Below are positions 3,623 to 54,133 of a stretch of DNA of 64,000 bases, piece after piece. Below the pieces are notes generated by a model. It made no database searches, had not been told where the DNA came from, and saw nothing but the letters and a program-made list of their open reading frames with translations. Origin of the DNA: Eledone cirrhosa (taxonomy: Eukaryota); the NCBI GenBank assembly GCA_964016885.1, contig OZ024749.1, positions 25,854,001-25,918,000 on the forward strand, given 5' to 3'. Both the position numbers and the translations under genes were made by a program. Positions within the stretch are counted from its first letter, which is position 1. Every line of letters begins with the position of its first letter.

Positions 3623-3800
3623 TAGGAACCAGTAAGACCCCGACAGCTGAGCTCAAGCCGTTTCGACGGCTAGCCGTCGAAACGGCTTGAGCTCAGCTGT
3701 CGGGGTCTTACTGGTTCCTATTACCCACTCTACTACCTCAAGTATTGAGTACTTTGGTGCGTTATGGTCCACCTGGTTCCTTACCACATTTCCTTCGTTA
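3623..3800 (+). mobile_element. Fold-back PLE terminus, family A
   Basis: Palindrome 3623-3671/3672-3720 plus a unique tail ending ttccttcgtta(TA)n; contains the HHR 3' half GAAAcggct-tgagctc-agctGTC. Confidence 0.85.
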
Positions 3801-4021
3801 TATATATATATATATATATATATATATATATATATATATATATATATATATATATATATATATGTATATATTTATATATATATATATATATATATATATA
3901 TATATATATATATATATATATATATATATATATATATATATATATATATATATGTATATATATATATGTATATATATATATATATATATATATATATATA
4001 TATATATATATATATATATAT

Positions 4022-4255
4022 ACCGCTGTAGATGTTTGGTAGAAATAGGAGAAATGTCCAAGGGTAGAGAACTCAAACCATAGGATGAGTAGTATAAATA
4101 ATTACAACGGTGACATAAACAGGTTTATTAAGTTTTGTTGGGTTCGGAACCCCAACTCATTCAGTCTGTCATAAGAAAATTCTGACAGGCTGAATGAGTT
4201 GTGCTCCAGAACCCAACAAAACATAAGTACCTGTTTATGTCACTGTTGTAATTAT
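4022..4255 (-). mobile_element. Fold-back insert, family C
   Basis: Imperfect ~73-bp inverted arms at 4098-4255, unique tail at 4022-4097, (TA)n on both sides. Confidence 0.75.
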
Positions 4256-4422
4256 ATATATATATATAATATATATATATATATATATATATGTATGTAT
4301 ATATATATATATATATATATATATATATATATATATATATATATATATATATATATATATATATATATGTTTATATATATATATATATATATATATATAT
4401 ATATATATATATATATATATAT

Positions 4423-4680
4423 GTAGGAGGTGAGTTTTATTGTAGTACAATAAAGCAATGCAGATATCGGATAAGAAGCACTCTACAGTTTGTAGGACTG
4501 GAGTATATATAATTGATATGTTGATTTAAAACTGCACTATTCACCACTGTTTTTTGACCTTCATATCATGTCTTCCTATTTTATCTGATGAAAACACAAA
4601 TGTTATTGCATGATGATATTTGTTTTTGAAATGCGCATAATAAAATACATGGAACTCTTTTAACCATCTTTGATCTTATA
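4423..4680. mobile_element. HHR-bearing PLE terminus with inversion (same family as 58211-58460)
   Basis: 4423-4510 is co-oriented with 58211-58300; 4511-4680 is inverted relative to 58300-58460. Confidence 0.8.
4577..4647 (+). ncRNA. Type I hammerhead ribozyme
   Basis: tattttat-CTGATGA-stem II-GAAA-tgcgca-TA-ataaaata: 8-bp stem I and palindromic stem III. Confidence 0.85.
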
Positions 4681-4700
4681 TATTATATATATATATATAT

Positions 4701-4913
4701 TTATTAAAATAAAGGATTAAAGTTGAAGCAAAGAATCGCTGCTTTCACCCTTAACGGGATCTTCTGTTTCAGTAGATCCCGTTAGGGTGAAAGCAGCGAG
4801 TTTTTGCTTAAACTTTAATCTGTTATTTTAATAAATATTTGCTCTATGGTTCTTATATATTTGATATATCGAGCCCTCTTTGGATTTTAGTCTTCACATT
4901 TATTATCATTACT
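4701..4913 (+). mobile_element. Fold-back insert, family B
   Basis: Arms 4701-~4765 and ~4772-4834, then a tail to cattacta(TA)n shared with 22750-22952 and 57417-57738. Confidence 0.8.
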
Positions 4914-50854: not shown

Positions 50855-51244
50855 TAGTGAAATAAGTCACCAAGTTCAACAGTTAATACTTTATTTATTT
50901 GATCTACACGCTCTTCATTCGATTCGGATATTATTCCCAATATCCTTATCAAGAGATAGTTAGGATCAATTATATATATAACATATAATATATGCTCTGA
51001 ATTTAAGTGGCCGGAACTATAGCACTGGATTTACCTTTGAAACAGATCTTCGATATAAAGTATTATTATATTTTCTTCAGATTAATCCCTTTATTTCCCT
51101 CTGAAGAAGAGATATTATCTCGAAATATAAGGATATTCAAATAAATTATAGAGTAAAAGACTAATTGTCAGCAATATCTTTTGCATTTGTATTTATATTC
51201 TATATCCATACCTGCATTGTTCTGGCCTTCTAACTCCAACCGTT
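50855..51244. mobile_element. Family H linear copy with an HHR-like motif at 51097-51132 (+)
   Basis: cct-CTGAAGA-a-gagat(att)atctc-GAAA-ta-TA-agg; (TA)n on both sides. Confidence 0.7.
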
Positions 51245-51404
51245 TATATATATATATATATATATATATATATATATATATATATATATATATATATATA
51301 TGGGTGGCTTCTATTGGGAATCGGGGGGAAGGGAAAGTCACCGATGCCAGAAAGGGAACTAGAAACGTTGAGTATATATGTGTAATTATTTCATATAGTA
51401 CGCG

Positions 51405-51592
51405 ATGGGTTGGCAGTATCTGTAGAGGGTTGGATGACATGCTTTCTTGCATAAAGTTACGACCCTTTACGGTCTAAGTTCAAATCCCGCCAAGGTTAAA
51501 TTTGCCTTTCATCCTTACGGGTTCGATAAAATAAAGTACCAGTAATGCACTGGAATAATTGCTGGCCTTGGGCCAAAAGTAGTAACAATTAG
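51405..51592 (+). mobile_element. SINE
   Basis: Head, B-box gttcaaatcc and core. Confidence 0.85.
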
Positions 51593-53282
51593 TTCATATA
51601 GAAAACATTCTACAGGACTAGAACTGTTTCATTCGTATGAAATCACCCTGAATGAAAGAGTTCTATTATTGGCTATTTGTGAGTGCAGATGATCTGCAAA
51701 CGCGGTAGAGATTCAATATATGTATTATAACAGGTTATCGGTTGAAATCTAGTTTCTGGTAGAGCAGAGCATGGTGGGATCGCTTGAATAATCTGTACTA
51801 ATAATATATATATATATAGTGAAGAAATAGCCGTCGAAACGGCTTGAGCTCTGCCGTCGGGGTCTTGAAGATTTTCCTATATATATATATATAAATTTAT
51901 ATACGTGTGTGGGTGTATACATGTATATATATATATATATATATATATATATATATATATATATATATATATATATATATATATATATATATACGTATAT
52001 ATACATATATATATATCAATGATATTAATAAATGGAAGCTATATTTATAAAACCATATTTATTCTATTTATTCTATTATATATATTTGAAGGGTAACAAA
52101 ACTTTGGTACGCTCTCATTAGATAAAATACAAAGTTTGTTTTATAAATATTGACATATCCAGGAAGGCTTTTTCCTTTATTAATTTAATTGATATTATAC
52201 TCCAGAAAACTTGTCGAGTGCTTCGAATCAGTTATAAATATATATATATATTTGTTGAATTACCAACAAATTAAATATCCCTTTTGCTTATACATATACA
52301 TATAGAGAGAGAGGGGCGAAGAGAGTGAGAGAGAGTTTATTTATAGTCATTACCATAACAGAAGTCTGACGAGCATTTGAGTCGGGCCAGATTCCTACAG
52401 ATCGAGGCTTGAGCTGATCAATCGTGAAACGTGCGTTACACCTTAATACATTTAATGAAGATCTAACACGTCCTTTTATAATTATTAGCATATGTGTGTG
52501 TGTGTGTGTGTGTGTGTGTGTGTGTGTGTGTGTGTGTGTGTGTGTGTGTGTGTGTGTGTGCGTATACGTGCGCGTGTGTGTGTGTAACACTTGATTTTCA
52601 GTGTCCTTTAAAGTATTCAACCATTTCTAGAAGAAAAAAAGGACTGAGGACAGACATTTTTATCTGCAGTGTGGAAGCCATTGACTGCTCCAACCTGCAG
52701 TGAATTCCCTCGTAGGTGGCTAAGATTGGTGAGTTTATCTCGATTGAATATTGTTCTTCTCAGCATTTGAAATATTATTGCAAGCTGATATATTCTAATT
52801 TCATTCAACGAGGATATATACGTGTGTATGTGTGTGTGTAGGTGTGTGCAAGCATGTAAGTCTGTTAGGCATATGATGTTAAAGAAGTTAAACCTATTTA
52901 AAACTAAATACTACTTATCTATACGTATATATATATATATTTATTATATATATATATATATTTATTAAATAATAGAATAGAGCGATCGTTATACTGTAAC
53001 CATCGCTTAAAATCTACATTTTCATATTATAAATACTACCAGGATTGAACGCCTGTCTCTATCCCCGTTTGATTGTCAAAATAGATATTAACATTCTTTA
53101 TTAGTCTTAATTCTATCAACTCTTCTATTATTTACCTTTTAATACAAACTGCTATAGATAAAATGAGATTTCTGATTTCTTGATTCAATTCCCTAATGCA
53201 TATACCAGCTGGCTACTAGCATTGATGTTATTTAGTAGCAATCGAAATCTCCCCCTTCCCCAATTGACACTTTATAATTAAT

Positions 53283-53466
53283 TGTTTCTACTTTAGGCAC
53301 AAGGCCAGCAATTATCCAGTACATTACTGGTACTTTATTTTATCGACCCCGTAAGGATGAAAGGCAAAGTCAACCTCGGCGGGATTTGAACTCAGATCGT
53401 AAAGGGACGTAACTATGCTGGAAAGCATGGCGTCCGACCCTCTACCGATACTGCCAATCCACCGCC
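53283..53466 (-). mobile_element. Full-length SINE with a 15-bp target-site duplication
   Basis: cactttataattaat at 53268-53282 and 53467-53481. Confidence 0.9.
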
Positions 53467-53924
53467 CACTTTATAATTAATACTACTTGACCAGCCCTGT
53501 CCACTGTCCAGTTGGTCAAGTAGAGATTAAAATTGGCACTCCCAAAATTCTTATTTAGATTTACTCATGGTATTCTCATTAGAAACCCATTATATACTTG
53601 TTTAGCAGTAAATTAATTTACCATCTGTCATATACTATCCCCTCTGTTTCTTCCTCTATTACTAATATAAATACTTCAATTTTTCTGATTTTATCCAATT
53701 TATCCAAAATCTCTGAAGAAGTGACAACTGATTATACATTTGCTATCGAATACTTGCTAACATTATATGATTACGCAAGCAGCGATACATAGGTATTCCG
53801 TCTGTTACAGAAACATATGTCAATACCTAATAAATTCCTTTTTAAAAAAAAGCACTTTCATTTTATATTCTCCTTTATATATATATATATATATATATAT
53901 ATATATATATATATATATATATAT

Positions 53925-54133
53925 AAAACAAAGGAATTGTGGTAAGGAACCAGATGGACCATAACGAACCAGAGTACTCAATACTTAGGGTAGTAGAATG
54001 GGAAATAGGAAAATGTATGACCCCGACGGCAGAGCTCTAGCCGTTTCGACGGCTATTTCTGGACAGAAATAGCTGTCCAGAAATAGCCGTCGAAACGGCT
54101 AGAGCTCTGCCGTCGAGGTCATACTTTTTCCTA
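53925..54133 (-). mobile_element. Fold-back family A terminus
   Basis: Centre ggacag-aaatag-ctgtcc (54061-54078); the short arm ends ttcc(TA)n. Confidence 0.85.

What the first reader, a model, noticed from the sequence alone, without database searches (positions are those of the whole stretch)
3623..54133. Inverted arms stop at a fixed internal TA-like site, suggesting second-strand priming by the target
Seen: in family A the short arm ends at the same point, ttcc|ta, in the copies at 3623, 12569, 22491 and 54133, and so does the orphan fragment at 51818-51880, while the fold-back centre varies. The same holds for E (taacaa|tat at 3007 and 20806), G (ccaa|tata at 49262), I (cttt|ata at 49578), the 7001 element (cttt|ata), B and C. 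Inference: (TA)n is self-complementary, so a nick on the opposite strand could prime cDNA at an internal UA-rich site. This resembles L1 twin priming but duplicates the arm.
Basis: partly seen in the sequence, partly recalled or inferred. Interest (0 to 1): 0.75.

Follow-up and report, generated by a model that had tools for sequence, protein, structure and literature searches.

The report
Penelope retroelements primed from both strands
These lopsided mirror-image insertions are ends of Penelope-type jumping genes, and in the family counted genome-wide almost every one pairs one short end with one long end, which likely means that both cut DNA strands start copying one RNA at two fixed TA-like sites and run to its predicted capped start.

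Summary
Observation confirmed. The hairpins are pLTR-plus-tail ends of endonuclease-bearing Penelope-like elements in (TA)n; family A has Hydra-clade motifs. Short arms end at one site (X). Genome-wide, one subfamily gives 3,329 short+long hairpins against 15 short+short and 32 long+long. X matches (TA)n over 3 nt or more in 19 of 36 family groups (6.8 expected).

The long end (Y) is also internal and TA-like. A small hairpin about 5 nt downstream seems to set both sites, and one family starts there with a 1-nt match. Centres vary but pile up at a predicted transcription start, with an untemplated G/C in 47 of 57 loci. Which arm is made second cannot be told.

Best model: both nicked strands prime one RNA at X and Y, run off its 5' end and are joined head to head. 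The inverted pLTR, the tail and two start sites are in print. This scan already noted twin priming and the hairpins on other DNA of this genome. The genome-wide counts, cap-like base and target duplications were tested here.

The parts
3625..3671 (-). Family A short (X-ended) arm, no tail
   Evidence: reaches 46-48 nt 5' of X
3672..3798 (+). Family A long arm: pLTR end, X at 3718, 80-nt tail with the RCTC..GAGY hairpin, Y at 3798
11794..12503 (+). Longer Y-ended family A copy; hammerhead-like motif about 12320-12413, TATA-like box from 12338, initiator-like TTAGT at 12367 (predicted start A 12369), X at 12426
   Evidence: ribozyme and promoter read by inspection, not assayed
12569..12733 (.). 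Family A short+long hairpin with a very short (about 25 nt) X arm; long arm reads TTTT after X
17365..17900 (.). Two tail-bearing family A arms head to head, separated by (TA)n and a fragment of another family: exception, or two events
22491..22689 (.). Family A short+long hairpin; X at 22609; arms reach -56 and -58 with a 5-nt insert ending in G
51819..51877 (+). Solo family A fragment ending at X, flanked by (TA)n on both sides
53926..54131 (.). Family A hairpin in reverse orientation: long arm on minus, short arm 54075-54131 on plus
3008..3300 (.). Family E hairpin: X arm 3008-3151 (minus), internal TA run, short tail-bearing arm to 3300; arms overlap by only about 10 nt
20807..22281 (.). 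Family E copy: X-ended arm (minus, about 1.2 kb) carries a GIY-YIG-type reading frame; the inverted arm 22024-22281 carries the 60-nt tail
4023..4252 (.). Family B hairpin, X at 4252, 78-nt tail
4701..4912 (.). Family C hairpin, X at 4834, 78-nt tail (other copies 22749-22951, 57417-57736)
7003..7353 (.). '7001' family hairpin, X at 7288, 65-nt tail
48832..49260 (.). Family G hairpin, X at 49260, 40-nt tail
49579..50760 (.). Family I insertion, 396-nt arms, 246-nt loop, X at 50615, 145-nt tail
8365..10582 (-). Decayed Penelope-like RT-thumb and GIY-YIG frames of another family whose end at 8365 is that family's X site

Best explanation
These are pLTR-plus-tail ends of Penelope-like retroelements whose two arms end at two fixed internal TA-like sites (X and Y), and each insertion was likely made when the enzyme nicked both strands of (TA)n and used both 3' ends to prime copies of one RNA, one at X and one at Y. 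Shown: element identity; fixed X and Y; one X plus one Y in 98.6% of counted hairpins; TA-like bases at both sites; an RCTC..GAGY stem just 3' of both sites in families A and C; 12-16 nt target duplications in a few readable cases; centres piled up at one position with an untemplated G/C. Inferred: a dimeric RT-endonuclease binds the two hairpins and starts about 5 nt 5' of each, with the primer's ...ATA-3' pairing with the template's UA(U), like a telomerase alignment region. Both cDNAs run to the capped 5' end, only about 58 nt beyond X in family A, so the usual product is a short duplicated arm. The two cDNA ends are then joined head to head with little homology, by end-to-end template jumping or end joining. 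Jumps from the RNA 5' end onto more RNA give direct tandems, and long or multimeric transcripts give kilobase arms. The order of the two primings is unknown.
For: Identity: family A body encodes RT (YRDD) plus GIY-YIG with DKT, CxCX5C, CxxC and CxH motifs; Atlas neighbours carry GIY-YIG or RVT_1 in part of their members. Pairing: 3,329 / 15 / 32; five of six long copies (arms 0.4-3.5 kb) show one X and one Y arm. Y internal: 379 copies run through Y (CGT|TAT) into the ORF leader, some in 3.53-3.54 kb head-to-tail arrays; Y is followed by ATAT in E (9 of 100 listed rows), by a TA-like start in 2 of 3 G read-through rows and by TAT in one C copy. Two cDNAs: X arm runs further 5' in 29, Y arm in 21, within 2 nt in 15 of 65 pairs; no centre microhomology in 45 of 65; Y arms that stop inside the tail while the X arm is intact (L121, L139, L009; more such joints in short-read contigs). 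Single event: duplications in 4 of 36 informative flanks against 7 of 1,260 mismatched pairs. One template: same subfamily in 38 of 39 classifiable pairs, 14 of 53 unclassifiable. Ruler: ACTC at +4..+11 in 12 of 36 groups, 1.3 expected; GAGY partner in 9 of 16, 1.2 expected; distance 5 fits 15 of 18. RNA 5' end: TATA-like box 29 nt before TTAGT; direct-tandem jumps land at -55 to -61; central base C/G in 47 of 57 loci although 11 of 11 long copies of that subfamily have T there. In vitro, Poseidon_Ac nicks and extends both strands, starts at two internal sites and is modelled as a dimer (PMC11167929).
Against: All mechanism steps are read from end products. In vitro PAc showed no difference in start site between strands and no homology to the target, so strict X+Y pairing and primer pairing are not shown biochemically. 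Duplicated arms on one RNA need one cDNA to be displaced, which is untested. Subfamily concordance could also reflect non-overlapping activity periods or conversion between arms. 9 of 36 groups match (TA)n by under 2 nt, and families E and G have no RCTC stem. The motif was found after looking, and the families are related. The transcription start and cap are not seen in RNA. Most flanks are pure (TA)n, so 32 of 36 informative flanks gave no duplication.
Confidence: 0.68

Rival explanations
1. Dual priming on two RNA molecules: each nicked strand primes on its own RNA (for example an RNA dimer held by the palindromic hammerhead stem), one at X and one at Y.
For: Explains duplicated arms without strand displacement. 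Stem III of family A is palindromic (by inspection). Dual priming is proposed for L1 (PMC2837659, passages).
Against: Two equivalent RNAs give no reason for 98.6% X+Y. Arms share a subfamily in 38 of 39 pairs. Long arms tend to come with long partners. No clean two-family pair was found.
Confidence: 0.13
2. Fold-back or self-priming: one cDNA folds back at its 3' end, copies itself to X and is captured by the other target end through TA microhomology (close to the self-priming idea of Arkhipova et al. 2013).
For: Many centres are nearly symmetrical; a few have 3-6 nt microhomology (9 of 65 with 3 or more is not reached: 5 of 65). Self-priming is proposed in PMC3846280 (passages).
Against: Cannot give X arms longer than the tail-bearing arm (29 of 65; E copy at 20807) or X-arm sequence missing from the Y arm (L121, L139, L009). 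No microhomology in 45 of 65. The extra central base occurs as C or as G when read from the X arm, so both arms appear to reach the RNA end.
Confidence: 0.09
3. One reading: the long arm is ordinary priming at the element's 3' end, and a later nick on the opposite strand anneals by TA homology alone to an internal UA-rich site.
For: TA match at X exceeds chance. In family 13, 6 of 13 short ends lie earlier, at or near a TATAT stretch, so pairing may have some pull.
Against: Y is internal too. Family A tails and pLTRs hold other TAT sites that are not used (ends at +3 and +78/80). In family 13, 7 of 13 ends lie at the hairpin distance with a 1-nt match. No evidence of order.
Confidence: 0.08
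4. Copies descend from a pre-formed palindromic master (a MITE-like or fold-back element), or are assembly artefacts.
For: A few centre sequences recur (258 strand-matches for one centre type).
Against: 61 distinct junctions in 65 pairs; arms are parts of an RT-encoding element; fold-back joints with many different centres occur in short-read contigs (that run may be the window's own sample).
Confidence: 0.02

Closest known systems
EN+ Penelope-like elements with inverted pLTR and one-sided tail (Arkhipova et al. 2013, PMC3846280, passages; Craig et al. 2021, PMC8557442, passages and section 11)
   Same: Head-to-head inverted 5'-truncated copy, tail on one end only, partial tandems, TATA and initiator motifs in the pLTR, (TA)n targets.
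   Different: Tails here are about 40-170 nt, not 30-40. Those papers ascribe the tail to endonuclease resolution and the inversion to self-priming; the data here point to two primings, with one tail per insertion as a near-absolute rule.
Poseidon_Ac in vitro (Frangieh et al. 2024, PMC11167929; abstract and main text read, parts 1-2 of 4; two supplementary PDFs gave only figure labels)
   Same: Two internal start sites near the pLTR-ORF junction that define the tail, at a stem-loop; both strands nicked and extended; predicted dimer; hammerhead cleavage not needed.
   Different: There the start site was reported as not homologous to the target and not strand-dependent. Here both sites mostly match (TA)n by 1-7 nt and the two ends of an insertion use different sites.
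Hydra clade of C-terminal EN+ PLEs (PMC8557442 section 11)
   Same: Family A has DKT, an RWK-like motif (RWR), CxCX5C linker, CxxC and CxH, and inserts in (TA)n.
   Different: Unit is 3.5 kb (most described ones are under 3 kb); no tree was built; family E has a different linker and was not placed.
L1 twin priming and dual priming (as described in PMC2837659, passages; the original 2001 paper was not held and is recalled only)
   Same: Both nicked target strands prime cDNA, giving inverted arms inside a target duplication with little homology at the inner junction.
   Different: L1 starts the first arm in poly(A) and the arms do not overlap (internal deletion). Here both starts are fixed and internal, the arms usually overlap, and the event is the rule, not a variant.

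Membership tests
EN+ Penelope-like elements | Single ORF with RT and C-terminal GIY-YIG endonuclease | tested here: met
   710-aa frame in L143 with YRDD and YIG motifs; Atlas neighbours at 0.96-0.99, GIY-YIG in 26-50% of members of several; Pfam itself gave no hit
EN+ Penelope-like elements | pLTRs in tandem or inverted arrangement with a one-sided tail | tested here: met
EN+ Penelope-like elements | Type I hammerhead in the pLTR | tested here: inconclusive
   Core motifs with a U3-A8 variant and three stems by inspection and fold; no hammerhead family among the 150 Rfam rows shown of 358; cleavage untested
Hydra clade (family A) | DKT, RWK, CxCX5C linker, CxxC and CxH, no CCHH, (TA)n target | tested here: met
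   Read on the L143 frame against section 11 of PMC8557442; RWK appears as RWR; absence of CCHH by eye
Hydra clade (family A) | Groups with Hydra in an RT tree | not tested
   No reference sequences fetched
L1-type twin priming | First arm primed in the poly(A) tail at the RNA 3' end | tested here: not met
   Y is internal; 379 copies read through it
L1-type twin priming | Non-overlapping arms with an internal deletion | tested here: not met
   Arms overlap in most pairs; the Y arm ends at or 3' of X in only 3 of 65
L1-type twin priming | Both arms inside one target-site duplication | tested here: inconclusive
   4 of 36 informative flanks, against 0.6% in mismatched pairs; unreadable in pure (TA)n
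L1-type twin priming | Second primer acts after the first cDNA has begun | not testable with these tools
   End products do not give order

The most novel reading that the evidence does not exclude
For these Penelope-like elements two-ended priming is the normal integration route: a dimeric enzyme reads two tandem RNA hairpins as rulers, aligns each nicked (TA)n end on a 1-7 nt UA template patch as telomerase does, copies one capped RNA twice to its 5' end and joins the two cDNAs. Tail, inverted pLTR and partial tandems would all follow from this one reaction, with no ordinary second-strand step at the target.
Probability: 0.45. Interest if true: 0.75.

Novelty: new variant of a known kind. 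Interest (0 to 1): 0.5.

Why it matters
How Penelope-like elements make their inverted repeats and tails is named as open in PMC8557442 and PMC11167929. This genome holds tens of thousands of end products (34,216 exact matches to one 23-nt tail junction). They give sharp predictions for the existing in vitro system: one X and one Y per event, starts that move with the hairpins, primer pairing on UA(U), and run-off at the cap. A primer-alignment patch next to a structural boundary would also be a mechanistic link to telomerase, the closest RT relative. The structure itself is known, so the value lies in the rule and its testability.

Tried and rejected
Rfam scan: only sub-threshold miRNA-type hits on palindromes in the 150 rows shown. 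DNA search of the genome with family A found nothing because common words are skipped. Pfam did not recognise the PLE frames. One search suggested that nothing follows Y; this was wrong, since the pattern stopped one base short, and searches corrected it. The first arm-concordance script mis-anchored many rows and was redone. I first read family A as Neptune-type from memory; section 11 of PMC8557442 fits Hydra better. The idea that Y arms stopping in the tail mark collisions with the X-primed enzyme was dropped, because X arms also stop early (solo list). A two-family X+Y pair at 8365-12503 is not established: 10544-11793 matches neither family and holds a TA run. No RNA holder listed, so start site and expression were not examined. 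Of five long+long pattern loci read, at least three had a clipped tail or a composite layout, and three of five short+short loci lay beside other copies. Literature: seven searches ran; 'Penelope + twin priming + inverted' listed two papers, neither on PLEs by title or abstract start. Subscription papers (for example the 2005-2008 Penelope papers, recalled only) are not covered. The retrozyme preprint (first of five parts read) did not bear on priming in that part. Supplementary figures of PMC11167929 could not be seen and may show target-template matches.
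Full report
What was asked. I checked the junctions, identified the elements, sampled the genome and tested the mechanism on end products. X is the short-arm end, Y the long-arm end, and positions are counted from X along the element's sense strand.

Observation. All named junctions are present. In family A, 78 head-to-head pairs from all loci held at that point were 68 X+Y, 2 Y+Y, 0 X+X and 8 with an irregular end; that set is enriched for Y arms by how 60 loci were picked. 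In the 80 stretches not picked by sequence the split was 21 X+Y and 5 irregular of 26. Genome-wide patterns for one subfamily, limited to hairpins with 70-100 nt between anchors, gave 3,329 X+Y, 15 X+X and 32 long+long loci, or 98.6% X+Y. Independent choice of site per arm would give about half. Most of the other families mapped also show two end peaks.

TA match. A de novo scan of the window plus 800 kb gave 87 candidates; 69 were kept by rules that ignore the match and formed 36 groups. The match to the flank was 2 nt or more in 27, 3 or more in 19, and 4 or more in 11, against 15.4, 6.8 and 3.2 under a null that picks the better phase. Nine groups match by under 2 nt. Some groups are related, and a few may not be PLEs.

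Identity. Upstream of the family A arm lies an RT plus GIY-YIG frame. Its motifs fit the Hydra clade as defined in PMC8557442 section 11, a lead taken from earlier scan notes and checked here on the protein. The E copy at 20807 and the frames at 8365-10582 and 24205-25473 are also PLE-like by translation. The pLTR has a hammerhead-like motif by inspection; most arms run past its predicted cut site, so uncut RNA was likely the template, as in vitro. The inverted pLTR with a one-sided tail is in print (PMC3846280; PMC8557442), as are two internal start sites, nicking of both strands and a predicted dimer (PMC11167929).

Y is internal too. 379 copies read through Y into the ORF leader, beginning TAT, and some sit in head-to-tail arrays of 3.53-3.54 kb. 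Read-through rows begin ATAT in E (9 of 100 listed; one leads into an open frame), with a TA-like start in 2 of 3 G rows and TAT in one C copy. So both ends are internal UA sites, not a 3' end and an internal site.

What sets the site. ACTC lies 4-11 nt after X in 12 of 36 groups (1.3 expected; motif noticed after looking). Earlier notes called this a hairpin; here 9 of 16 RCTC groups have a GAGY partner (1.2 expected), and the Y sites of A and C fold into such a stem. A distance of 5 nt from junction to stem fits 15 of 18 groups. In family 13, 7 of 13 short ends lie at that distance with only one matching base, and 6 lie earlier at A/T-rich spots. Structure therefore likely sets the register, and TA pairing helps. 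E and G lack this stem; in E both sites read AATATCG.

Two cDNAs, one event. Among 65 X+Y pairs the X arm runs further 5' in 29, the Y arm in 21, and 45 have no centre microhomology. In L121, L139 and L009 the Y arm stops inside the tail while the X arm is intact; short-read contigs show more such joints. Fold-back of one cDNA cannot make these. Four of 36 informative flanks show 12-16 nt duplications that start TAT and end ATA (7 of 1,260 in mismatched pairs). Arms share a subfamily in 38 of 39 classifiable pairs, and long arms mostly have long partners, which favours but does not prove one RNA.

Why centres cluster. X arms stop at -45 to -62 in 51 of 65 pairs and Y arms in 39 of 65. Position -58 is the A of an initiator-like TTAGT with a TATA-like box 29 nt upstream (motif names recalled; PMC3846280 describes such motifs in pLTRs). 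Direct-tandem jumps land at -55 to -61. Where both arms reach -58 with one base between them, that base is C or G in 82 of the 100 rows listed of 258 (47 of 57 loci), while all 11 long copies of that subfamily have T at -59. An untemplated G at a 5' junction is the recalled signature of copying a cap; terminal C addition at the RNA end would read the same. Hairpin lengths cluster in other families too (about 290 nt in the 7001 family, about 500-540 nt in 5 of 13 E copies).

Order. Both X-ended and Y-ended arms carry template jumps (L182 and L179 against L177 and L180), and nothing here dates one before the other. 'Second strand' is therefore not shown.

Verdict. The architecture is known; the strict pairing, TA alignment at both sites, hairpin ruler and run-off at a predicted cap refine it into a testable mechanism. 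I did not find these in seven searches of open literature, but this scan has noted twin priming and the hairpins on other DNA of this genome, and centre clustering at a predicted start in another genome. Novelty: new variant of a known kind. Interest 0.5.

Noticed in passing
window 32725-47562: 42-nt minisatellite, 353 copies, 95% matches. The minus strand stays open for about 4,980 codons, partly a Thr/Ser-rich 14-residue repeat that shifts into a Pro/Leu frame: possibly a mucin-like exon with an assembly frameshift, or plain satellite.
   Followed up: partly
window 7368-8302: 418-nt tandem repeat ending in a fold-back, related to repeats of about 465 nt in L007 and L011; non-coding by appearance, with fixed ends at TAT sites 72 nt apart: likely a non-autonomous, retrozyme-like derivative.
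   Followed up: partly
window 60695-63587: Decayed LINE on the minus strand with RVT_1 (E 1e-26) and zf-RVT hits, next to an (AAT)n run.
   Followed up: no
window 12320-12331 and L027, L034, L037, L046: Hammerhead core varies among family A subfamilies (UUGACAA, UUGAGAA, CUGAGAA, UUGAAGA), mostly a U3-A8 pair instead of C3-G8.
   Followed up: no
L173 (G000:C1:27008147-27011166): Two identical 257-nt units (-61 to +196) in tandem with the same junction, as if from a small circular template or a DNA duplication.
   Followed up: no
L193 (G000:C1:115425814-115428833): A template jump lands at the predicted hammerhead cut site (-17), and several solo copies begin near -18: cut RNA may sometimes be copied.
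   Followed up: partly
window 48269-48831 and 50855-51244: A further family forms a fold-back at 48269-48808 and a longer copy at 50855-51244, 98% alike, on either side of the G and I insertions.
   Followed up: no
L146 (G000:C11:9992001-10002000) 6825-9039: X+Y insertion whose Y arm jumps from the pLTR into an inverted piece of the ORF.
   Followed up: partly
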